Of a stretch of DNA of 64,000 nt, positions 28,391 through 36,578 are shown one piece after another (within the stretch, counting starts at the first letter, position 1; each line of letters starts with the position of its first letter). Origin of the DNA: Escherichia coli (GTDB taxonomy: Bacteria > Pseudomonadota > Gammaproteobacteria > Enterobacterales > Enterobacteriaceae). Under the pieces are notes generated by a model. It saw only the letters and a program-made list of their open reading frames with translations, searched no databases and was not told the DNA's origin. Made by a program: the position numbers and the translations under genes. Location of the stretch: the NCBI RefSeq assembly GCF_001677475.2, contig NZ_CP015229.1; one strand, 5' to 3'.

Positions 28391-29287
28391 TCAGGAACAG
28401 AAAATTAATTGCGGATTTCTTAAATATTCCATGCACCACTGGCAGGCTTTGCCCATACCATCGGAACGAGCGGCAAGAAATAACTTGGTGGCGTGTTTAT
28501 GTTCGCGCATTGGCTTTTTAAGCAATTTACCGCTGTTTAATAATGGCAATGCCAGATGATGTGGAATATAGCCAATACCGACGTTTTGTTCTATTAAGGC
28601 GATTGCCGTAGCGAAGTCAGGAACAAAAATGGGTTTTTGTCCTTCCAACAGCCAGGCTTGCATCGGGGGAAAGTTAACGGAGGTATCGCGGATACAAACC
28701 GCCGGATAATGACGCAATTCACTGTTTTCTAATGGATGCCGCTTCGCTGCCAGTGGGTGGAGTGGGCTGACGACAAAATCCCATTCCATTTGTCCGATCG
28801 GTTCGCTAATGATGCCTTCACTGCTTGGCACTGCATGAGGAGCACCGTAGACCAGATCGGCACGCTTACTGTACAGAGCATCCCAGCAGCCGTTGTATAC
28901 CTCAAGATCAACCGTCAGCGTTGTTGATGTGAATTGCCGTTCAAAATCTCGAATAAATGCCACCAGCAAATCACCAGGAATAATATTGTTCACCGCAATT
29001 GTTAGTTCACGCTCAATACCATCGTGAATCAGCACTGTGTTGCGCTTTAATGCTTCCAGGTCGCCAAGAATAGTTTTGCTATGTTCGATGAAGTAACTCC
29101 CCGCCGGAGATAATTCAATATAGCGTCCCTTACGAATGAACAGTTCAACGCCCAGGCTCTCTTCCGCTTTCTTGATGGTGTAACTGATGGCGGAAGGGAC
29201 TTTATTTAACTGCTCGGCTGCGGTGGTAATGCTCTGGTGTCTGGCGACCAGATGAATAACACGAAGCGTTTCGTCTGAGATGAACAT
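28391..29287 (-). CDS. LysR-family transcriptional regulator (island)
   Basis: 298-aa ORF; N-terminal HTH LVARHQSITTAAEQLNKVPSAISYTIKKAEESLGVELFIR. Confidence 0.85.
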   Translation of the reverse strand: MFISDETLRVIHLVARHQSITTAAEQLNKVPSAISYTIKKAEESLGVELFIRKGRYIELSPAGSYFIEHSKTILGDLEALKRNTVLIHDGIERELTIAVNNIIPGDLLVAFIRDFERQFTSTTLTVDLEVYNGCWDALYSKRADLVYGAPHAVPSSEGIISEPIGQMEWDFVVSPLHPLAAKRHPLENSELRHYPAVCIRDTSVNFPPMQAWLLEGQKPIFVPDFATAIALIEQNVGIGYIPHHLALPLLNSGKLLKKPMREHKHATKLFLAARSDGMGKACQWCMEYLRNPQLIFCS

Positions 29288-29364
29288 AAGGCTCCCTGGT
29301 CAGTGGTAAAGTGGCTGAATCTCTCCAGATTCAGCCGTAATCATTGCTTGAGTATACTCAGGAA

Positions 29365-30588
29365 TTAGCGGCGTTGACTTGCCCGACTGAGAATCGCATA
29401 CGCGATACATGCCACCAGAATCGAGTCTACCGAAGGGATCGTCGTCAGGGTGAATAAGCCTTTGACGGTCATAAAGCCAACCGCTGCGCCTATGATCCAT
29501 GCCGCGAATGTCAGCACTTTAATCTGTGACTCCTGGGCTAACACTGACTCTTGATAGCCATTACGGCGATAAAGGAAAAAGTCAGCGATATAAATTCCGG
29601 CAACGGGTGGCGTGGCGATACCGAGGAACAGCAGAAACGGAATAAACCACGCCATAATATCCAGACTGCCTACGATGGCGGAAAGGATACCCAGCGCCAC
29701 GGTAATCTGCCATTTTGGAAAGCGGGTAAGCAGTGTGGAAACCACCAGCGTGCCCTGGAACATATTGCCCGCGTTACCGGTGACGCAGGCGAAAATCAAC
29801 AACAGCGCCGCGGGCAGAACCGCACCGAATACCGCCATAGCACCCAGTAAAGATCCCTGACCACTAATGGCGCTCGGCGTTGCACCCGCCCAGTAGAGCA
29901 GAGGGTAGGCAACCAGAAACGTCACGCTTGCGGCAATCAGCGCATGTTTGCGGTTATGCACAAAACTACCGAAATCAGGCAGTGTGGCAACCAGCACAAT
30001 AATGGTGCCAACAACGGTGGAAACGGCGACACCCGTATTCATCTCCACAATCGCCGCTGGTGCTGTCACTTCGGTATGGGTTGCCACATAGAGGATGTAA
30101 CACAGCACCAGCGCGATAACCGGCACGGCAACCTGGGCAATTTTTCCCAGAACGGCAAAACCAAATGCCGTAGAGGCGATAAAAATGACACAGCCAGCCG
30201 CCACTAACAGTGCTAGTGGAACTTCCAGTCCATGTTGAGCCAGTAAGTCATGTACCGAATGACCAAACATATTGGCGGTAACGGCAATCCAGCCGAACAG
30301 ACTTATCGCCATCAAAATGTTAATGGCGATGGCCCCTTTTTCGCCAAACGAATATTTCACAATGCCATACGTTGGCAGGCGGGCTTTTTCTCCCACGCTA
30401 ATAGTGATGGCTGAAAGTAAGGTCAGAATGACGCCGCCTAACAATACGACGCTAATTAAACTGCCGCTGGAAAGTTGATTGCCGAGGCTTGAGGATGACA
30501 ACAGCACAGGTGTGACGGCAATACCCAACAAAATCATGGCAATACGCAATCCTGATGCCGTATTCAGACTCTCTTCTTTTTTACGCAT
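29365..30588 (-). CDS. NCS1-family (CodB-like purine/cytosine-type) permease (island)
   Basis: 407-aa polytopic membrane ORF; CodB-like segments incl. GIYIADFFLYRRNGY. Confidence 0.8.
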   Translation of the reverse strand: MRKKEESLNTASGLRIAMILLGIAVTPVLLSSSSLGNQLSSGSLISVVLLGGVILTLLSAITISVGEKARLPTYGIVKYSFGEKGAIAINILMAISLFGWIAVTANMFGHSVHDLLAQHGLEVPLALLVAAGCVIFIASTAFGFAVLGKIAQVAVPVIALVLCYILYVATHTEVTAPAAIVEMNTGVAVSTVVGTIIVLVATLPDFGSFVHNRKHALIAASVTFLVAYPLLYWAGATPSAISGQGSLLGAMAVFGAVLPAALLLIFACVTGNAGNMFQGTLVVSTLLTRFPKWQITVALGILSAIVGSLDIMAWFIPFLLFLGIATPPVAGIYIADFFLYRRNGYQESVLAQESQIKVLTFAAWIIGAAVGFMTVKGLFTLTTIPSVDSILVACIAYAILSRASQRR

Positions 30589-30613
30589 AGTATGTTCCCT
30601 TTAAAAATGCGCG

Positions 30614-31003
30614 TTACACAGTATGAAAATGCCCGGTGTATTTGCGCCAGCTACCCAGTTCTGTAATTTCCCGTTGGCCTTCTGTGAGCCAGTTTTCAGC
30701 CAGTACACCGAGCACTTCGCTACCATCGGCAAGTTTGATTTTGCCTATTGCCAGCCCGGCAGGTTCGCTCATTAACAGAGCGGCAAAACTGGCCAGCGGT
30801 AGTTGCCAAATTTCTACGTCGACGTGTGTTCCACCTTCATTCACGCGAATCATTCCTGGATGGCGATCGTTAATACTCCACAGCCGGTAATGGGCGTCAG
30901 TTCTGTCTTCACGGACAAAAATGCCGCCCGCTTTTTGCATATTTGGGTTAAGTTCCAGGCCGCGCATCAGTGTTCCGTTAACGGCTAAAAGCGTTGTAGT
31001 CAT
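30614..31003 (-). CDS. Small protein resembling the allophanate hydrolase C-terminal (GGCT-like) domain (island)
   Basis: 129-aa ORF; LLAVNGTLMRGLELN...EIWQLPLASFAALLMSEPAGLAIGKIKLADGSEVLGVLAE pattern; recognised from memory of the domain, not searched. Confidence 0.5.
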   Translation of the reverse strand: MTTTLLAVNGTLMRGLELNPNMQKAGGIFVREDRTDAHYRLWSINDRHPGMIRVNEGGTHVDVEIWQLPLASFAALLMSEPAGLAIGKIKLADGSEVLGVLAENWLTEGQREITELGSWRKYTGHFHTV

Positions 31004-31019
31004 TATGTTCTCCAGAAAA

Positions 31020-31976
31020 TTAAAGGGTTATCCATGTACCGCTCTGATGCGCCAGGGCCGCTTTTATGGTTTGCGGTGAGGTAATCAGGCCGCTGGCCTG
31101 TTTGCCTTGTTGCTGGCTGGTATTGATGAAATCAACAATGGCTTCCACTTTGGGTTGCATACTGCCGACACCAAATTGACCTTCCCGCAACAGTGTTTGC
31201 GCTTCGGCAACGCTAATGGCGTCGAGCCACTGTTGTTGTGGTGTACCAAAGTTAATCGCCACTTTTTCTACTCCGGTGGGTATCACCAGCAGATCCGCAC
31301 CTAACTGACTGGCGAGCAGCGCGGAGGCCAGATCTTTATCGATCACGGCTTCCACACCTTTCAGTTGTTGCCCGTCTCGCACCACCGGAATGCCGCCGCC
31401 GCCGCAGGCAATAACCAGATATCCCTGTCGCACCAGATGAGCGATGGTGTTGTGTTCAATAATTTCCAGTGGCGCAGGAGAGGGAACCGTACGCCGCCAC
31501 CCGCGCCCGGCATCCTCCATCAGAGTCCAGCCGAGCTGCTGCTGGCGTTGTTGGGCCGTTGCTTCATCGAGAAACGCGCCAATCGGTTTACTGGGGCTGG
31601 CGAAAGCATCGTCATGTGGGCTAACTCGCGTTTGTGTCACTAGCGCAATTACCGGTTTGTTTATGCCACGGCGAGCGAGTTCGTTATGCAGCGCCTTCTG
31701 GAACATGTAGCCAATTGCGCCTTGTGTATCACCCACGGCGTAATCAAGCGGAACCGGAGAAACTTCGTTACAAGCAAGTTCAGAGCGACGCAGAATAAAG
31801 CCCACCTGCGGTCCATTACCGTGGGTTAGCACCAGATCCCATCCGGCTTCAACCATATCAACGATATGCTGCACGCTTTCCATCACTGCAACATATTGAT
31901 CGGGAATACTATTGTGTTGATCGTCTTGAATGAGCGCATTGCCGCCAACCGCGACAACAGCCAGTGGCTTAACCAT
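31020..31976 (-). CDS. Carbamate kinase (island)
   Basis: ORF 31020-32306; start at internal MVKPLAVVAVGGNAL (318 aa) overlapping the upstream gene stop by 8 nt; amino-acid-kinase fold motifs. Confidence 0.85.
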   Translation of the reverse strand: MVKPLAVVAVGGNALIQDDQHNSIPDQYVAVMESVQHIVDMVEAGWDLVLTHGNGPQVGFILRRSELACNEVSPVPLDYAVGDTQGAIGYMFQKALHNELARRGINKPVIALVTQTRVSPHDDAFASPSKPIGAFLDEATAQQRQQQLGWTLMEDAGRGWRRTVPSPAPLEIIEHNTIAHLVRQGYLVIACGGGGIPVVRDGQQLKGVEAVIDKDLASALLASQLGADLLVIPTGVEKVAINFGTPQQQWLDAISVAEAQTLLREGQFGVGSMQPKVEAIVDFINTSQQQGKQASGLITSPQTIKAALAHQSGTWITL

Positions 31977-33393
31977 GATGATTCTCCTTTGCGACGATCT
32001 CAGCCAGTGCACGTATAGCGGCGACAAAACAGGCCATCGGCGCAGTGGTGATCCCGGCACCAATTTGCCCGACTCCCGCTTGTTTGTGGGCGATACCCGT
32101 ATTGATGACCGGTAAAATGCCGCGATCGGTAACTTTACGCGCATCAATCCCTGCTGCGGTGGGGGCAAAATTGAGGGCAGGAAGTGTAAATGCGGGGTTA
32201 CCGCCGAGGGTGATTGCCTGCATCCGACGGCTGTTATTGGTGGCATCGGCAGGTGTGCCTCCCACAAATTTAACGATTGCCGGAGATGACGCCATCGCGA
32301 AGCCACCTACACCAGCGGTTTCGGTAATTGCGCTATCGCCCAAGTCAGCAGCGGCGTCGTCAACGCCAAATCCAGGGAAGAACAGACCTTCAACTGCATT
32401 GGCGGGAGCCTGGAACCAGCGATCGCCAGTACCGGAAAGCCGAATACCAAAATTCACCCCGTTACGCGCCATCACCGTAACCATTGAACTGAACGGTACA
32501 TTGGCGGCGGCATCCATCATTGCTTTACAGGCAGCCATCGACAGATTGAGGAAGAAGTGATCGTTACCGGTGATAAATGCTACGACGCGCTGGATATGTT
32601 CCTGTGGAAGAGAGCGGGCCAGCAATGCCGGGATCAGACGCTTAATCAGCAAACCGGTAGCGGCAGCATTGCGGTTATGAACTTCATCCCCCATATGTAG
32701 CGCCTGCGCCATTAATGGCTTGAGTTCCAGCTCGCCGTGTTGTGCGATTGCTGCTTTCATTGCCGGAGCCAGTTCATCGCGCATCCAGGCCAGACGATTG
32801 AGAACTTCGTCGTTATTGGCGCCAAAACGGAGAACCTTACCCAGACCTTCATTGAAATTACTAAAAGTACGATGACCGTTGGTTTTATTTTCCACCACCC
32901 ATAACGGCATTGACGGGCTGATGATGCCTGCCATTGGTCCAACCGCGTGATAATGATGACAAGGGGCAAGGTCGATTTCGCCTGCGTTTATCTGGTTTTC
33001 TGCGTCTTGCTGGCTGGTGGCCCAACCTTCGTACAGCATGGCACCAATAATCGCCCCTTTTACCGGACCACACATCTCTTCCCAGGTAATCGGCGGGCCA
33101 GAGTGCAAAATACGTTTTTGTTCAGCCATTGCTGGAATGGCCTCTTTAGCGAGCATGACATCCACCAGCACGGGCTGTGCTTCGAGATAACGTGTCATGG
33201 CGATTTGGTTGGCATTTTCTACCAGTGGATGACGTAGCAACGATGCCAGATCCAATCCAGCGTCAATATCGCCTTGTGCTGGTGGCTGCCAGTTGAGTGC
33301 AATTGCGCTTCCCCCGGCATGTTGAATATTGTCAGCAAAACTGTGTAGTCCCGCGTTCACGACCTTCAAAGACTGATTAAATAAGGTATTCAT
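31969..33393 (-). CDS. DUF1116 protein, YahG/YlbE-like (island)
   Basis: ORF 31969-33444; start at MNTLFNQSLKVVNAG (474 aa) forms ATGA overlap with FdrA-like stop. Confidence 0.8.
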   Translation of the reverse strand: MNTLFNQSLKVVNAGLHSFADNIQHAGGSAIALNWQPPAQGDIDAGLDLASLLRHPLVENANQIAMTRYLEAQPVLVDVMLAKEAIPAMAEQKRILHSGPPITWEEMCGPVKGAIIGAMLYEGWATSQQDAENQINAGEIDLAPCHHYHAVGPMAGIISPSMPLWVVENKTNGHRTFSNFNEGLGKVLRFGANNDEVLNRLAWMRDELAPAMKAAIAQHGELELKPLMAQALHMGDEVHNRNAAATGLLIKRLIPALLARSLPQEHIQRVVAFITGNDHFFLNLSMAACKAMMDAAANVPFSSMVTVMARNGVNFGIRLSGTGDRWFQAPANAVEGLFFPGFGVDDAAADLGDSAITETAGVGGFAMASSPAIVKFVGGTPADATNNSRRMQAITLGGNPAFTLPALNFAPTAAGIDARKVTDRGILPVINTGIAHKQAGVGQIGAGITTAPMACFVAAIRALAEIVAKENHHG

Positions 33394-34949
33394 GCGTTTA
33401 GCCCCTTTTTCTGCAACTGAGTCTGTGCAACGGTGCTGGCCCATAGCGCCGCCTGTGCATTGCTGCTGGCGATGATGACCCCTGCATTTTGTAGTGCGCT
33501 TATCTGCTGGCTGCGTATTTGCGGATCAGCTTCCGTTCCGCAAACGTGCGCAATCAGCAACGGTGCGTTATTCATGTCGATGTGTGAAAGTTGGTCCAGT
33601 AATTCGCTGGCAGGCGTCGTGGAAGCGCCATAACCAAGTACCAGGTCGAATAACACGACGGCAGTGTGTGAGTCGTTGAGTTCGTTGAGCAGACGTTGAT
33701 TGCGCAGAGTCGGATCGATCATTGGATGCGGTTTGCCACGGGTGAAATCATCGTCGCCCATATCGATCAACGTGTGATCTTCGCTTTGCCAGATATTTGC
33801 CAGAGCACGATTACCCGCAACTGGCGTATTGGAAGCTGCGCTGAATCCCTTTTGTTGGCAGATAAGTTGCGCTTCGTAGCAGAAGGTTCCTCCGGCGAAA
33901 ACACCGCGTATCGCCTGGCGATGGGCTGGCAGGCGCTGGCAGGCGTTTTGTAACATTGTGAGATCGTCGCAGGGTACATCGGTTTCGACAGCCGGAAATG
34001 GCTGAGCATTCAGTAACGCCACAGCGATGTCGGCGGCGCTGGCAAGTGTGGTGGCGGCAGTGATATTGGGACGTGCCAGATCATGCGGATTCGCCCCGAG
34101 GAAATTCACCACCACGGGTTTTCCACAAGCCTCGGCGCGCTCCAGAATAGTCCGGGCAACGATCGGTGAAGGCGGTTTTGAAATAAGCACAATCACGCGA
34201 GTTTCATCGTCTTGCGCCAGCGCATCTAAAGCGAAGAGCATCGATATTCCACTAATCTCTTCACTGAGATCATGTCCGCCTGTTCCCAACGCCTGAGAAA
34301 TACCCGCTCCGAGCTGGTCGATTCGGCAAGTCACTTCCTGTAGCCCGGTGCCTGACGCGCCAATAACACCAATCGCTCCACGTTTCACCACATTGGCGAA
34401 GCCTAACGGAATGCCGTTAACGATGGCGGTTCCACAGTCAGGTCCCATTACGATGCGCTGACGTTCTCGGGCAAGTGTTTTGATGGATTTTTCCTGCGCG
34501 ATACTGACGTTATCGCTGAACATCATCACGTTCATTCCGAGGTTTAACGCTTTAATTGCTTCGGCGGCGGCGTAGTCTCCCGGTACAGAAATGAGTGCCA
34601 GGTTGGCTTCGGGTTCGGCTTCCAGTGCCATTTCCAGGCTGACCTTTTCCGGTGTTTTAATGCCACTACCCGTTTCATCATCGGGTTTGCTGGTCAGACG
34701 TTGCTGGGCCAGTACCAGTGCTTCATTGCAAATATCTTCTTCACCCATGACTGCAATCACTAAATCATTGGGACTGGCGTTGATTTCGTTACCCAGACCC
34801 ACATCGCGCAATTGTTCGAGATTATTGGGTGTTCCCATGACGACCGAAGCCTGTTGAATACCGGGCAATTTGCTGATTTGCGCGGAAATCTGCATCAGAG
34901 AAACCGAGTCCTGATAAAGATTGCTGAGAACTTTATGTTTAACTTTCAT
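33390..34949 (-). CDS. FdrA/YahF-like protein (succinyl-CoA-synthetase-alpha-like CoA-binding fold) (island)
   Basis: 519-aa ORF; GxGxxG-type glycine-rich segments VIGASGTGLQEV, LGTGGHDL. Confidence 0.8.
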   Translation of the reverse strand: MKVKHKVLSNLYQDSVSLMQISAQISKLPGIQQASVVMGTPNNLEQLRDVGLGNEINASPNDLVIAVMGEEDICNEALVLAQQRLTSKPDDETGSGIKTPEKVSLEMALEAEPEANLALISVPGDYAAAEAIKALNLGMNVMMFSDNVSIAQEKSIKTLARERQRIVMGPDCGTAIVNGIPLGFANVVKRGAIGVIGASGTGLQEVTCRIDQLGAGISQALGTGGHDLSEEISGISMLFALDALAQDDETRVIVLISKPPSPIVARTILERAEACGKPVVVNFLGANPHDLARPNITAATTLASAADIAVALLNAQPFPAVETDVPCDDLTMLQNACQRLPAHRQAIRGVFAGGTFCYEAQLICQQKGFSAASNTPVAGNRALANIWQSEDHTLIDMGDDDFTRGKPHPMIDPTLRNQRLLNELNDSHTAVVLFDLVLGYGASTTPASELLDQLSHIDMNNAPLLIAHVCGTEADPQIRSQQISALQNAGVIIASSNAQAALWASTVAQTQLQKKGLNA

Positions 34950-35043
34950 GCTGTTACGCCTGTTTCATTCCGCCCGATAGTAAAATTCGGGCAAAGCATC
35001 CCCGTGTAGCGCCATAAATGAGCTACAGGAGAAAAGGTTGAAA

Positions 35044-35904
35044 TCAATTCATGGTGTTCAGGGTTCGAAAGCCATGCAGCATTCCTGCAAGGCAATCCAC
35101 TCCTGACGTTGCGCCAAATTGCATGACCTGTTCTGCACAGGATGCGATTGTCATTGCCGATGCGCCCCCAACCAGTTGTGCGAGTAACTGGCAAATCGGT
35201 TCTGAAAAATGCCCCCGAAGCGCACGCTCCAGATAATGACGACTGATGTCAGTGGTGTTGTGCGCATGTTGATCAATTGCCTGCTGCAACCGGTATTGAT
35301 GAGCGGCAAGTGGTGCAGGTAGTTGCCATAACCAGAGCGCTGCCAGATAGCCCAACAAATAGTCATCTCCATCGGGAGTTAAGCCTTTGCCAAAGCCGAT
35401 CAGTTGTGGCACCTGGCGTTCCAGCGCATCTGGATGTTCCATAATCTCTAATCCCTGGTGCGTGAGACTATCCGGCAGGTGCAATGTGCTTTGAACGTTA
35501 TGCTCCAGACAAAATAAAAGCCGTTGCGATGCCATCGTTGGGTAGTGCTGGAAAACCAAAGGGAACGCCTCAAGTGTCAGCCTTCCTCCCACAAATGACG
35601 GCTGCCAGAGCGTTGCGTTATCGAGAGCCACACAAAAGCGAGGTGTCTGCAGCAAGCCTGGGGTTAACTGAACGGGATCGGAATGGGCAATCTCTCTTCG
35701 CCAGTCCCAACGCTTAGGCAGCCAGACTCTGGCAGCATCAGGGAGATTCAGATACGTTTGCGCACACAACAGGGTGATGAATGTTCCCGCTTCTGAATAC
35801 AGATTTACCGCATGTTTAAAAGCACTGTGCAGACGTAAATCTTGCGTTTCATTCCACGGGAAAAGATATCCCAACGACGATGCGCAAAGCGTAACCTGTA
35901 CCAT
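35044..35904 (-). CDS. DUF2877 protein, YahE/YlbF-like (island)
   Basis: 286-aa ORF located where yahE/ylbF sit relative to FdrA-like genes; 5-nt gap to upstream gene. Confidence 0.65.
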   Translation of the reverse strand: MVQVTLCASSLGYLFPWNETQDLRLHSAFKHAVNLYSEAGTFITLLCAQTYLNLPDAARVWLPKRWDWRREIAHSDPVQLTPGLLQTPRFCVALDNATLWQPSFVGGRLTLEAFPLVFQHYPTMASQRLLFCLEHNVQSTLHLPDSLTHQGLEIMEHPDALERQVPQLIGFGKGLTPDGDDYLLGYLAALWLWQLPAPLAAHQYRLQQAIDQHAHNTTDISRHYLERALRGHFSEPICQLLAQLVGGASAMTIASCAEQVMQFGATSGVDCLAGMLHGFRTLNTMN

Positions 35905-35909
35905 CGGTG

Positions 35910-36578
35910 TTAGCCTTCCAGGCCTGCAATAATGGCTTTGGAATCAGTAACCCAACCGAAAATGGCACCTTGTGCTTTGATCATCTCCAGGGCGTATTTC
36001 TGGAATTCCGGGAAATAGGAGCCAACGCAATCTTCCGGGATGATGCACTCATAACCACGATCATTCGCTTCGCGCACGGTGGTGGTCACACAGACTTCCG
36101 TGGTTACTCCGCAAACAATCAGCGTTTTGATGCCGTGGTTTTGCAAAATCAGATGTAAGTCGGTTTGATAAAAAGCGCCTTTGCCGGGTTTATCAATCAC
36201 CGGTTCGCCTGCGACCGGGTACAGTTCAGGAATGATGTCATGACCTGCTTCACCTCTGACCAGAATGCGCCCCATCGGGCCTGCTTCACCAATAAAGGTT
36301 TTACCGCCGCGCGTCAGTTTGGCTGGTGGGCAGTCGCTTAAGTCTGCACGATGGCCTTCACGGGTATGAATAACCATAATTCCTTTTTGACGTGCGGCTG
36401 CCAGCACCTCTGTACATGGAGCGATAGCCGTGCGTACCAGTGAAACATCATTGCCCAGTGCCTCACCGAAGCCCCCTGCTTCGACAAAGTCACGCTGCAT
36501 GTCGATCATGACCAGTGCAGTTGTGCGCGGATCAAAAGGTAATTCAAAGGGTTGAGCCTGAAAAATGGATTGCGTCAT
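35910..36578 (-). CDS. Isochorismatase-family cysteine amidohydrolase (island, first gene of operon)
   Basis: 222-aa ORF; LVMIDMQRDF, conserved Cys in LIVCGVTTEVCV; good SD GGAGA upstream. Confidence 0.8.
   Translation of the reverse strand: MTQSIFQAQPFELPFDPRTTALVMIDMQRDFVEAGGFGEALGNDVSLVRTAIAPCTEVLAAARQKGIMVIHTREGHRADLSDCPPAKLTRGGKTFIGEAGPMGRILVRGEAGHDIIPELYPVAGEPVIDKPGKGAFYQTDLHLILQNHGIKTLIVCGVTTEVCVTTTVREANDRGYECIIPEDCVGSYFPEFQKYALEMIKAQGAIFGWVTDSKAIIAGLEG

What the first reader, a model, noticed from the sequence alone, without database searches (positions are those of the whole stretch)
30614..31003. Stand-alone 129-aa protein resembling the allophanate hydrolase C-terminal domain, encoded between carbamate kinase and the permease
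The ORF is small and sits inside the operon with 10-25 nt spacers. Its sequence (LLAVNGTLMRGLELN ... EIWQLPLASFAALLMSEPAGLAIGKIKLADGSEVLGVLAE) looks to me like the GGCT-fold C-terminal domain of allophanate hydrolases, which in those enzymes handles the N-carboxycarbamate intermediate. Here it occurs as an isolated domain, with no amidase-signature domain attached, next to a carbamate kinase and transcarbamoylase-like genes. That suggests a dedicated role in processing a carbamate or carboxylated nitrogen intermediate, or in substrate channelling. This arrangement is not, to my knowledge, described.
Basis: inference. Interest (0 to 1): 0.55.

Follow-up and report, generated by a model that had tools for sequence, protein, structure and literature searches.

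The report
Stand-alone allophanate-hydrolase-like domain protein c4763
This small gene is real and does encode a free-standing copy of the tail domain of allophanate hydrolase, but the identical protein (E. coli c4763) already has a published crystal structure; its job is still untested, and its neighbours suggest it removes CO2 from a breakdown intermediate of triuret- or biuret-like nitrogen compounds.

Summary
A 129-aa ORF lies on the minus strand at 30614-31003, with a GGAG ribosome-binding site and spacers of 16 nt and 25 nt. It matches Pfam AH_C end to end (E 1.8e-41).

The claim that it is undescribed fails. The protein is 100% identical to PDB 5C5Z, "c4763, a uropathogenic E. coli-specific protein" (2015). 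RefSeq names it "allophanate hydrolase-related protein". Its function remains untested.

New here:
- **Distinct subfamily.** c4763 belongs to a stand-alone subfamily in which the histidine invariant in true allophanate-hydrolase C domains is always leucine.
- **Conserved partners.** In 80 loci from many phyla it sits with a cysteine hydrolase in 69. That hydrolase carries every residue that marks triuret hydrolase TrtA. An AllFGH-like transcarbamoylase is present in about 63-66 loci and carbamate kinase in 65. None has TrtB or an amidase-type allophanate hydrolase.
- **Other contexts.** Relatives are fused to BiuH/TrtA domains or to carbamate kinase, or lie beside AtzE-family amidases.

Best reading (confidence 0.4): a decarboxylase for the N-carboxy product of the partner hydrolase, playing a TrtB-like role in an ATP-yielding triuret/biuret-type operon. 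Rivals are allophanate decarboxylation, scaffolding, and the same chemistry as the AH C domain.

The parts
30614..31003 (-). c4763-type stand-alone AH_C (GGCT-fold) protein, 129 aa; the finding itself
   Evidence: ORF. Pfam PF21986 at E 1.8e-41. 100% identical to PDB 5C5Z. 17 synonymous and 0 non-synonymous differences against the E. coli copy L001.
31010..31013 (-). Shine-Dalgarno GGAG, 6 nt upstream of the ATG of the AH_C gene
   Evidence: Read directly from the sequence.
31020..31976 (-). Carbamate kinase (arcC/AllK-like), 318 aa; its start overlaps the stop of the DUF1116 gene
   Evidence: NCBIfam carbamate kinase: 375.6 bits (cut-off 266) and TIGR00746 365.5 bits (cut-off 358). RefSeq annotation of the E. 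coli copy.
31969..33393 (-). AllG-like (DUF1116) subunit of an oxamate-transcarbamoylase-like enzyme
   Evidence: RefSeq 'DUF1116 domain-containing protein'. Pfam AllG in orthologous loci. AllFGH identified as oxamic transcarbamylase in PMC11326118.
33390..34949 (-). AllF-like (FdrA) subunit
   Evidence: NCBIfam PRK06091 FdrA: 494.8 bits, cut-off 433.
35044..35904 (-). AllH-like (DUF2877) subunit
   Evidence: RefSeq annotation. Pfam AllH in orthologous loci.
35910..36578 (-). TrtA-like isochorismatase-family cysteine hydrolase, 222 aa; first gene of the operon and most constant partner of the AH_C protein
   Evidence: Best PDB matches are TrtA 6XIX/6XJ4 (E 5e-80), then BiuH (E 8e-69 and weaker); RutB only 6e-28. 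62% identical to Herbaspirillum TrtA and 52% to BiuH. Carries TrtA-type F35, N41, A134, E160, Y187, Q202, I205 and the D24/K129/C162 triad (alignment read against PMC7948467).
29365..30588 (-). NCS1-family ('cytosine') permease, the likely substrate importer
   Evidence: NCBIfam CodB model: 148 bits, below its cut-off of 326. An NCS1 permease also sits in a classical AtzF-BiuH-TrtA cluster, L086.
28391..29287 (-). LysR-family regulator (PunR/AllS-like), the last gene of the island
   Evidence: NCBIfam PunR 287 bits and AllS 215 bits, both below cut-off. Found with the operon in 52 of 80 loci.

Best explanation
The gene encodes a catalytic, GGCT-fold decarboxylase for an N-carboxylated urea-chain intermediate. 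It plays, for a cysteine-hydrolase pathway, the part that the fused C domain is reported to play in allophanate hydrolase.

Proposed sequence in this operon:
1. The NCS1 permease imports a triuret-like compound.
2. The TrtA-like hydrolase removes the terminal amide as NH3, leaving an N-carboxy product (carboxybiuret if the substrate is triuret).
3. The c4763 protein decarboxylates that product. This is the job done by the unrelated protein TrtB in the classical triuret pathway.
4. The AllFGH-like enzyme phosphorolyses the remaining N-carbamoyl compound (biuret, or carboxybiuret/allophanate) to carbamoyl phosphate.
5. Carbamate kinase converts carbamoyl phosphate to ATP, NH3 and CO2.

Shown: the homology, the fold, the subfamily signature, gene co-occurrence and gene fusions. 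Inferred: the substrates of the hydrolase, of c4763 and of the transcarbamoylase, and that c4763 is catalytic at all.
For: (1) Homology and fold. It matches the AH C domain. PMC5770610 states that this domain and the N domain 'catalyze sequential reactions' in the conversion of allophanate to ammonium.

(2) Constant partner. In the best 80 of 531 loci from a scan of 100,044 species genomes, 69 carry a hydrolase matching the window's TrtA/BiuH-like enzyme, and in 68 a hydrolase scores best against the window's own clade. Six of the 11 loci without one are truncated. This holds in the full operon of gamma-, beta- and alpha-proteobacteria. It also holds in the eight loci, mostly Verrucomicrobia MAGs, that lack AllFGH and carbamate kinase; seven of those eight show the window-type hydrolase and the eighth (L074) is cut off upstream. 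All eight add a true BiuH (NCBIfam 417 bits, cut-off 370, measured on L061).

(3) The hydrolase looks like TrtA. It has all the TrtA-discriminating residues. TrtA's product, carboxybiuret, decarboxylates spontaneously with a half-life of about 20 min, and elsewhere TrtB catalyses that step (PMC7948467).

(4) TrtB is missing exactly where c4763 is present. None of the 80 loci has TrtB (AtzH-like) or an amidase-type AH, and neither does the window. In three of four classical TrtA loci, TrtA is followed directly by TrtB. In L055 and L077 the AH_C gene directly follows the hydrolase gene.

(5) Fusions. AH_C is fused to BiuH, or to BiuH plus TrtA domains, in eukaryotic proteins from Chromera and Chlorokybus and in one transcriptome assembly. 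This parallels the TrtB-TrtA fusions (PF11533+PF00857).

(6) Other partners of the same type. More distant Leu-type stand-alone members sit beside an AtzE-family amidase plus an HpxX/AtzG-like protein (L092), or beside a lone amidase (L089). By established knowledge of AtzE and HpxY, such enzymes also deamidate a terminal ureido group and leave an N-carboxy product.

(7) Strong constraint. There are 0 of 129 amino-acid changes against 17 synonymous changes. The family keeps 62-88% identity across proteobacterial classes, with about 48 invariant positions, many of them polar.
Against: No biochemical data exist for this family.

The catalytic role of the AH C domain is itself disputed. From my memory of Balotra et al. 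2015 (AEM), which I could not re-read, the AtzF C domain was found to be non-catalytic in vitro.

If c4763 makes biuret, the E. coli operon has no BiuH. The AllFGH-like enzyme would then have to accept biuret, a neutral substrate unlike oxalurate, and would release urea, which urease-negative E. coli cannot use.

The eukaryotic two-domain fusions involve BiuH-type rather than TrtA-type domains. That fits action on allophanate at least as well.

Five of the 80 loci (cyanobacteria, Chthoniobacter, Gemmatimonadota) and L090/L091 show no hydrolase within the flanks held.

Fusion to carbamate kinase may reflect no more than gene adjacency.
Confidence: 0.4

Rival explanations
1. It occupies the 'AtzF slot' and decarboxylates allophanate (N-carboxyurea) to urea plus CO2. 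Allophanate would come from BiuH in the eight BiuH-containing loci (mostly Verrucomicrobia MAGs) and in the eukaryotic fusions. In this operon it would come from phosphorolysis of carboxybiuret by the AllFGH-like enzyme.
For: It is homologous to the C domain of AtzF/AH, and those loci have no amidase-type AH. The two-domain fusions pair AH_C with BiuH-type domains at 72% and 50% identity to Herbaspirillum BiuH, mirroring the amidase-then-AH_C order of AH. In the BiuH-containing loci a small cupin, apparently fused to AH_C in L074, could fill the TrtB slot instead. Replacing the conserved His by Leu fits a substrate with one negative charge fewer than N-carboxycarbamate (inference).
Against: Urea is useless to urease-negative E. 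coli, so the enzyme would waste half the nitrogen. From memory, allophanate already decarboxylates slowly on its own. In the window-type clade the invariable partner is the TrtA-like hydrolase, not BiuH.
Confidence: 0.2
2. It is a non-catalytic assembly or scaffolding subunit. It would dimerise and hold the hydrolase, transcarbamoylase and/or carbamate kinase together, so that labile intermediates are passed on before they decay.
For: [quoted passage not shown] The K. lactis AH-AH dimer interface contributes to activity, and the interface mutations G559E/G572E lie in the C-domain range (PMC5770610). Fusions occur with several different partners: carbamate kinase, BiuH, TrtA and a cupin. From memory, Balotra et al. 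2015 found no catalytic role for the AtzF C domain and found a role for it in a multi-enzyme complex.
Against: The partners belong to unrelated folds (cysteine hydrolase, amidase signature, amino-acid kinase), which a single conserved interface would hardly serve. The invariant residues are largely polar or charged and include the GGCT-type G-T-L loop and Glu64, which suggests a ligand pocket (inference). Stand-alone orphans exist.
Confidence: 0.15
3. It does the same chemistry as the AH C domain. It would break down N-carboxycarbamate, or simply speed the breakdown of the carbamate released by carbamate kinase and the transcarbamoylase.
For: It is homologous to AH_C. It lies directly after the carbamate kinase gene, and a carbamate kinase-AH_C fusion is seen in L081 and in a 22-member metagenomic cluster.
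Against: The His found in 45 of 45 AH C domains aligns with K. lactis His492, which from memory is the residue proposed as catalytic by Fan et al. 2013. It is Leu in 45 of 45 family members, and further family-specific differences exist. Nothing in the operon is expected to produce N-carboxycarbamate. By established chemistry, carbamate decomposes spontaneously within seconds. The loci with BiuH but without carbamate kinase or transcarbamoylase still keep the protein.
Confidence: 0.1

Closest known systems
c4763 of uropathogenic E. coli CFT073 (PDB 5C5Z; Kim, Choi, Kim & Kim, Acta Cryst F 2015)
   Same: Identical over all 129 residues. The AF2 model superposes at TM 0.98. PMC7558591 cites that paper as describing a homologue of allophanate hydrolase.
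   Different: Nothing differs at protein level. The window's DNA is 4.4% diverged, all of it synonymous. No enzymatic function has been shown. The paper itself could not be read here.
C-terminal domain of allophanate hydrolase (K. lactis AH 4ISS/4IST, Granulibacter AH 4GYR, AtzF; Pfam PF21986)
   Same: Same Pfam family and fold. Shares Gly10, Tyr39, Pro49, Glu64, Trp119 and Arg120. Both follow an amidohydrolase that deamidates a terminal ureido group.
   Different: It is stand-alone, not fused to an amidase-signature domain. Its motif is AVNGTLMRG where AH has AVxGAH(L/M)xG, so Leu12 replaces the invariant His. Further differences are Thr11/Ala, Asn21/Gln, Ile44/Leu and Gly83/Pro. Its partners are cysteine hydrolases and an AllFGH-like enzyme, not urea carboxylase.
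TrtB (carboxybiuret decarboxylase) and AtzH (1,3-dicarboxyurea-processing enzyme), both NTF2-like, Pfam PF11533
   Same: The proposed role is the same: removing CO2 from the N-carboxy product of a ureide amidohydrolase. The gene position is also the same, directly after TrtA, and both are sometimes fused to it.
   Different: No sequence or fold relationship: PF11533 versus the GGCT-like AH_C fold. The two were never found together in the loci examined.
AllFGH oxamic transcarbamylase plus AllK carbamate kinase of the E. coli K-12 allantoin pathway
   Same: The neighbouring genes are paralogues. PMC12928451 reports about 40% identity to FdrA, 46% to YahG and 47% to YqeA for the same island. The logic is the same: phosphorolysis of an N-carbamoyl amide to carbamoyl phosphate, then ATP (PMC11326118, PMC9843812).
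   Different: No TrtA-like hydrolase or AH_C protein is described for the K-12 allFGHK or yahEFGI clusters (from my own knowledge, not tested here). The substrate of this paralogue is unknown and is probably not oxalurate from allantoin.
Gamma-glutamyl (amine) cyclotransferases (GGCT, GGACT, AIG2-like, YtfP)
   Same: Same fold at a distance, TM 0.53-0.70. Shares the N-terminal G-T/S-L loop and a conserved Glu on the central strand (inference from the motifs).
   Different: The Pfam GGACT match is only E 1.2e-3. There are no gamma-glutamyl substrates in the gene context.

Membership tests
Pfam AH_C (PF21986), allophanate hydrolase C-terminal domain family | Significant full-length match to the family profile | tested here: met
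   E 1.8e-41, model positions 2-122 of 123.
Pfam AH_C (PF21986), allophanate hydrolase C-terminal domain family | GGCT-like alpha/beta fold superposable on a solved AH C domain | tested here: met
   AF2 model with pLDDT 94. TM 0.90 to K. lactis AH 4ISS and TM 0.98 to its own crystal structure 5C5Z.
Pfam AH_C (PF21986), allophanate hydrolase C-terminal domain family | Conserved histidine of the G-A-H-(L/M) motif (K. lactis His492) | tested here: not met
   Leu12 aligns with this His. It is His in 45/45 AH-type domains and Leu in 45/45 c4763-type sequences. That His492 is catalytic rests on my memory of Fan et al. 2013 (JBC), which is not held.
Allophanate hydrolase proper (EC 3.5.1.54; TIGR02713 / NF006043) | N-terminal amidase-signature domain with a Ser-cisSer-Lys triad | tested here: not met
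   The protein is 129 aa and matches only model positions 440-562 and 472-595. Scores are 99 and 105 bits against cut-offs of 511 and 487. No amidase domain is found in the window or in the 80 related loci.
Allophanate hydrolase proper (EC 3.5.1.54; TIGR02713 / NF006043) | Hydrolysis of allophanate to NH3 and CO2 | not testable with these tools
   Requires enzymology.
TrtB / AtzH-like decarboxylases (PF11533) | NTF2-like fold and a match to PF11533 | tested here: not met
   No PF11533 match. TrtB of Herbaspirillum is a separate 125-aa PF11533 protein. Any similarity is in function only.
Gamma-glutamylcyclotransferase-like (PF06094 GGACT/AIG2) | Significant profile match and a gamma-glutamyl substrate context | tested here: inconclusive
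   Weak match at E 1.2e-3. Fold similarity TM 0.53-0.70. No gamma-glutamyl metabolism genes in the operon.
GatA-type 'glutamyl-tRNA amidotransferase' (the name carried by PDB 5C5Z and many GenBank records) | Amidase-signature domain and association with GatB/GatC | tested here: not met
   No amidase domain. The neighbours are not gatBC. The name is an annotation error inherited from full-length AH/GatA-like hits.
Triuret hydrolase TrtA (applies to the partner gene at 35910-36578) | Catalytic D-K-C triad plus the TrtA-versus-BiuH discriminating residues F35, N41, A134, E160, Y187, Q202, I205 | tested here: met
   All are present in the window protein and in its orthologues (alignment read against PMC7948467). 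Identity to TrtA is 62%. The BiuH model scores 279 bits, below its cut-off of 370. Activity on triuret is not testable here.

The most novel reading that the evidence does not exclude
c4763-type proteins would be a new enzyme family: histidine-less, stand-alone AH_C domains that decarboxylate N-carboxy-ureides. The island carried by 29% of complete E. coli genomes, and by large enterobacterial plasmids, would then encode a previously unrecognised, ATP-yielding route for triuret/biuret-type compounds. Its steps would be a TrtA-like hydrolase, the c4763 decarboxylase, a new 'biuret/allophanate:phosphate carbamoyltransferase' paralogous to AllFGH, and carbamate kinase. Because triuret is a urate oxidation product found in human urine (PMC7948467), this would give a concrete metabolic rationale for a 'uropathogen-specific' locus.
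Probability: 0.3. Interest if true: 0.65.

Novelty: new variant of a known kind. Interest (0 to 1): 0.42.

Why it matters
The observation itself is not new. The protein, its fold and its likeness to the allophanate hydrolase C domain were published in 2015. What remains open is what it does.

If the reading here is right, three things follow:
- A 'uropathogen-specific' protein of unknown function gets a testable substrate class.
- A second, non-homologous solution (beside TrtB/AtzH) would exist for removing CO2 from labile N-carboxy intermediates of urea-chain catabolism. That would bear on the unresolved question of whether AH C domains are catalytic at all.
- The AllFGH transcarbamoylase family, whose first function was assigned only in 2024, would gain a second physiological substrate, linked to substrate-level ATP formation.

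It also corrects two annotations: 'glutamyl-tRNA amidotransferase' for this protein, and a RutB-like pyrimidine role proposed for the neighbouring hydrolase.

Tried and rejected
- **c4763 is TrtB.** Rejected. The Herbaspirillum trt locus shows that TrtB is a 125-aa PF11533 (AtzH-like) protein.
- **The operon is a Rut-like pyrimidine pathway**, as suggested for the same island in PMC12928451. Rejected as the closest analogy. The hydrolase matches TrtA/BiuH at E 5e-80 to 1e-67 and RutB only at 6e-28.
- **Generic GGCT/AIG2 cyclotransferase.** Weak: E 1.2e-3 against 1.8e-41 for AH_C.
- **GatA-type amidotransferase** (the deposited name). No amidase domain is present.
- **Chance ORF.** Rejected on the 17 synonymous and 0 non-synonymous differences and on the profile matches.
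- **Papers that could not be read.** I tried Kim 2015 (PMC4528939), Fan 2013 (PMC3774409), Lin & St Maurice 2013 (PMC3568674), Balotra 2015 (PMC4277574) and Aukema 2020 (PMC6952224). None is held, so statements about them are from memory or from citing papers.
- **Literature searches.** Searches for c4759-c4765, DUF1116/DUF2877 and biuret plus carbamate kinase found no functional study of the island.
- **Promoter and terminator scan.** Uninformative. There were fewer hits than in shuffles and no intergenic terminator within the operon.
- **The ~530-aa protein of the BiuH-containing loci.** Pfam and NCBIfam gave nothing. Hydropathy shows a multi-pass membrane protein.
- **Cyanobacterial and Gemmatimonadota contexts.** No consistent enzymatic partner.
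Full report
**1. The observation**

- It follows the carbamate kinase gene (stop at 31020-31022) after 16 nt. That spacer holds a GGAG 6 nt before the ATG.
- It is followed after 25 nt by the permease start at 30588.
- The same eight-gene island lies between metE and ysgA/udp in 1556 of 5426 complete E. coli genomes. RefSeq names the gene product 'allophanate hydrolase-related protein' there.
- The gene order is LysR regulator, 'cytosine' permease, this gene, arcC, DUF1116, fdrA, DUF2877, cysteine hydrolase.
- The window is a diverged copy (metE differs by 5.1%). Within this gene, all 17 nucleotide differences from the E. coli copy are synonymous.
- The neighbouring hydrolase shows 29 nucleotide changes but only 1 amino-acid change. 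The other six operon genes show 2-16 amino-acid changes.

This is a translated gene under strong purifying selection.

**2. What the protein is**

- Pfam AH_C (PF21986) matches end to end at E 1.8e-41. GGACT matches only at 1.2e-3.
- NCBIfam's two allophanate hydrolase models match only through their last ~125 positions, far below their cut-offs.
- The sequence is 100% identical to PDB 5C5Z. That entry is titled 'Crystal structure analysis of c4763, a uropathogenic E. coli-specific protein' and was released on 2015-08-19.
- An AlphaFold model (pLDDT 94) superposes on 5C5Z at TM 0.98 and on the K. lactis allophanate hydrolase C domain at TM 0.90. GGCT/GGACT-fold proteins follow at TM 0.53-0.70.
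- PMC7558591 cites the 2015 paper as describing c4763 as a homologue of allophanate hydrolase.

The statement that the arrangement is undescribed is not. I could not read the 2015 paper, and I found no functional study of the island.

**3. It is a distinct subfamily, not a detached AH C domain**

A search of 1.84 billion cluster representatives gave 1464 relatives. I aligned the listed sequences to a profile of the family. They split cleanly by N-terminal motif.

| Position (c4763 numbering) | c4763 type | True AH C domains |
|---|---|---|
| N-terminal motif | AVNGTLMRG | AVxGAH(L/M)xG |
| 12 | Leu, 45 of 45 | His, 45 of 45 |
| 11 | Thr | Ala |
| 21 | Asn | Gln |
| 44 | Ile | Leu |
| 83 | Gly | Pro |

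Gly10, Tyr39, Pro49, Glu64, Trp119 and Arg120 are shared by both groups.

The histidine corresponds to His492 of K. lactis AH in native numbering (numbering checked against S177/G559/G572 in PMC5770610). From my memory of Fan et al. 2013, that is the residue proposed as catalytic for conversion of N-carboxycarbamate. I could not re-read the paper.

Within the c4763 family, conservation is very high. Members from gamma- and beta-proteobacteria share 62-88% identity, with about 48 invariant positions.

**4. The neighbours**

*FdrA/DUF1116/DUF2877 and arcC.* The three genes are paralogues of allFGH, shown in 2024 to encode oxamic transcarbamylase (oxalurate + Pi to carbamoyl phosphate + oxamate). 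arcC is a paralogue of the catabolic carbamate kinase AllK (PMC11326118 and PMC9843812; identities for this island in PMC12928451).

*The 'cysteine hydrolase' at 35910-36578.* This was the informative surprise.

- Its best solved relatives are triuret hydrolase TrtA (6XIX/6XJ4, E 5e-80) and biuret hydrolases (E 8e-69 and weaker). RutB matches only at 6e-28.
- It is 62% identical to Herbaspirillum TrtA and 52% to BiuH.
- It scores 279 bits on NCBI's BiuH model, below the cut-off of 370.
- It carries every residue that PMC7948467 lists as distinguishing TrtA from BiuH: F35, N41, A134, E160, Y187, Q202 and I205. It also has the D24/K129/C162 triad and K132.

TrtA turns triuret into carboxybiuret plus NH3. 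Carboxybiuret loses CO2 spontaneously with a half-life of about 20 min, or enzymatically through TrtB.

**5. Co-occurrence across genomes**

A scan of one genome per species (100,044 species) for the family motif found 531 confirmed loci. The best 80 were fetched with 10-kb flanks. They come from gamma-, beta- and alpha-proteobacteria, Verrucomicrobia, cyanobacteria and Gemmatimonadota.

Counts of partner genes in the 80 loci:

| Partner | Loci of 80 |
|---|---|
| TrtA/BiuH-like hydrolase | 69 |
| AllG | 66 |
| Carbamate kinase | 65 |
| AllF | 63 |
| NCS1 permease | 58 |
| LysR regulator | 52 |
| AllH (weakly detected) | 50 |

Six of the 11 loci without a hydrolase are cut off by contig ends. 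In 68 loci a hydrolase scores best against the window's own clade. None of the 80 has TrtB or an amidase-type AH, and the window has neither.

Three kinds of context appear.

- **Type I**, the large majority: the full operon, in the same order as here.
- **Type II**, eight loci, mostly Verrucomicrobia MAGs (one labelled Klebsiella pneumoniae). They have no AllFGH or carbamate kinase. Seven show the window-type hydrolase; L074 is cut off upstream. All eight also hold:
  - a bona fide BiuH (417 bits, above the cut-off of 370, measured on L061);
  - a 128-150-aa cupin;
  - a ~530-aa multi-pass membrane protein with no Pfam match.

  Most also have a porin-like protein. In L061 a sensor kinase and an NtrC-type regulator lie upstream.
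- **Type III**, five loci: no recognisable partner. In cyanobacteria an SsuA/TauA-type ABC transporter is adjacent.

The classical triuret locus of Herbaspirillum reads AtzF (amidase + AH_C), ABC transporter, BiuH, TrtA, TrtB, GntR, where TrtB is a PF11533 protein. TrtA is followed directly by TrtB in three of the four classical loci examined.

**6. Fusions and more distant contexts**

- A carbamate kinase-AH_C fusion (458 aa) occurs in L081 and in a 22-member metagenomic cluster.
- Eukaryotic proteins fuse AH_C to hydrolase domains:
  - Chromera velia: BiuH-type + AH_C.
  - A transcriptome-derived protein: AH_C + BiuH (72% to Herbaspirillum BiuH).
  - Chlorokybus: AH_C + BiuH + TrtA.
- These parallel the TrtB-TrtA fusions (PF11533+PF00857) seen among TrtA homologues.
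- More distant stand-alone members, still with Leu at the His position, lie beside other amidohydrolases. In L092 the neighbours are an HpxX/AtzG-like small protein and an AtzE-family amidase (748 bits, cut-off 461). In L089 the neighbour is a lone amidase. One member, L090/L091, is an orphan.

The common denominator is this. AH_C-type proteins accompany, or are fused to, amidohydrolases of at least two unrelated folds. By established knowledge of TrtA, BiuH, AtzE, HpxY and AH, these enzymes deamidate a terminal ureido group and so generate an N-acyl-carbamate.

**7. Mechanism**

The best-supported reading is that c4763 decarboxylates the N-carboxy product of its partner hydrolase. In this operon that product would be carboxybiuret, which makes c4763 a non-homologous stand-in for TrtB. 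The AllFGH-like enzyme and carbamate kinase would then convert the remaining carbamoyl group into ATP, NH3 and CO2.

I rate this at 0.4.

- *Shown:* the homology, fold, subfamily signature, co-occurrence and fusions.
- *Inferred:* all substrate assignments, and catalysis itself.

The main weakness is what happens to biuret in E. coli, which has no BiuH. Either the AllFGH-like enzyme phosphorolyses biuret and leaves urea, or it acts on carboxybiuret/allophanate and c4763 acts elsewhere in the chain.

The rivals are:
- allophanate decarboxylation, the 'AtzF slot' (0.2);
- a non-catalytic assembly role (0.15), supported by the AtzF truncation data in PMC3944691;
- the same N-carboxycarbamate or carbamate chemistry as AH (0.1), disfavoured by the His-to-Leu change and by retention of the protein in loci without carbamate kinase.

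**8. Comparison with the known, and verdict**

The protein is a member of Pfam AH_C by sequence and fold. It is not an allophanate hydrolase, because it has no amidase domain. It is not TrtB/AtzH, because the fold is different. It is not a GatA-type amidotransferase, which is a mis-annotation.

The points I did not find described are the histidine-less stand-alone subfamily, its constant pairing with a TrtA-like cysteine hydrolase, and the combination with an AllFGH paralogue and carbamate kinase. I rate it a new variant of known kinds, of moderate interest (0.42). It is worth a straightforward enzymological test, because triuret occurs in human urine and the island is enriched in extraintestinal E. 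coli.

Noticed in passing
L061:7225-8817; L071:7984-9615; L059:10398-11996 (also L034, L062-L070, L073, L074, L078, L080): A conserved ~530-aa multi-pass membrane protein with no Pfam or NCBIfam match at all. It replaces the NCS1 permease after the AH_C gene in Phytobacter-, Kosakonia- and Sutterella-type operons, and it is present in all eight BiuH-containing loci, 17 loci in total. It is probably an undescribed transporter family for the pathway's substrate.
   Followed up: partly
window 28391-36578 versus plasmid records H9-H14: The same protein, with its operon, also occurs on plasmids. There are 125 places on E. coli plasmids. About 82 enterobacterial plasmids of 140-240 kb, from chicken and human isolates, carry a copy 90-99% identical in protein.
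   Followed up: partly
window 28391-36578 and flanks (metR, metE): Divergence from the E. coli copy is uneven. The LysR and permease genes differ by 1.7-1.9%. The AH_C, arcC, DUF2877 and hydrolase genes differ by 4.3-5.0%, and metE by 5.1%. This suggests a recombination breakpoint near 30600, just downstream of the AH_C gene. The window comes from an Escherichia lineage not represented above 99% identity among the complete E. coli genomes.
   Followed up: no
P0132 (Chromera velia), P0202 (Chlorokybus atmophyticus), P0136 (eukaryotic transcriptome): Eukaryotic algae and protists encode fusion proteins of AH_C with BiuH- and TrtA-type cysteine hydrolase domains. This implies that the bacterial triuret/biuret module was transferred into eukaryotes and fused there.
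   Followed up: partly
L071:9612-9998; L064:9616-10008; L061:9556-10008; L074:1270-2205: A 128-150-aa ChrR-like cupin directly precedes the AH_C gene in the BiuH-containing (mostly Verrucomicrobia) loci. In L074 it appears fused to AH_C in one ORF, which could also be a MAG assembly artefact. Its role is unknown; it may be another decarboxylase or hydrolase step.
   Followed up: partly
L092:8001-10229: A stand-alone Leu-type AH_C gene is followed by an HpxX/AtzG-like 68-aa gene and an AtzE-family amidase gene. This three-gene module resembles atzG-atzE-atzH, with AH_C in place of AtzH.
   Followed up: partly
L086:1561-8696 (Stutzerimonas stutzeri): A classical biuret/triuret cluster (GntR, AtzF, BiuH, amidase, CN hydrolase, TrtA) contains an NCS1 'cytosine/purine' permease. 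This supports the idea that such permeases import urea-chain compounds rather than cytosine.
   Followed up: no
PDB 5C5Z and many GenBank records for this protein: The deposited molecule name 'glutamyl-tRNA amidotransferase' is a propagated mis-annotation. JGI labels relatives 'gamma-glutamylcyclotransferase ... YtfP'.
   Followed up: yes
L076:7024-10087; L079:2102-5502; L075:5611-6772: In cyanobacteria the AH_C homologue sits next to genes of an SsuA/TauA-type (NitT/TauT family) ABC transporter. In L076 it lies in the same operon, with overlapping stop and start codons. No hydrolase lies nearby.
   Followed up: partly
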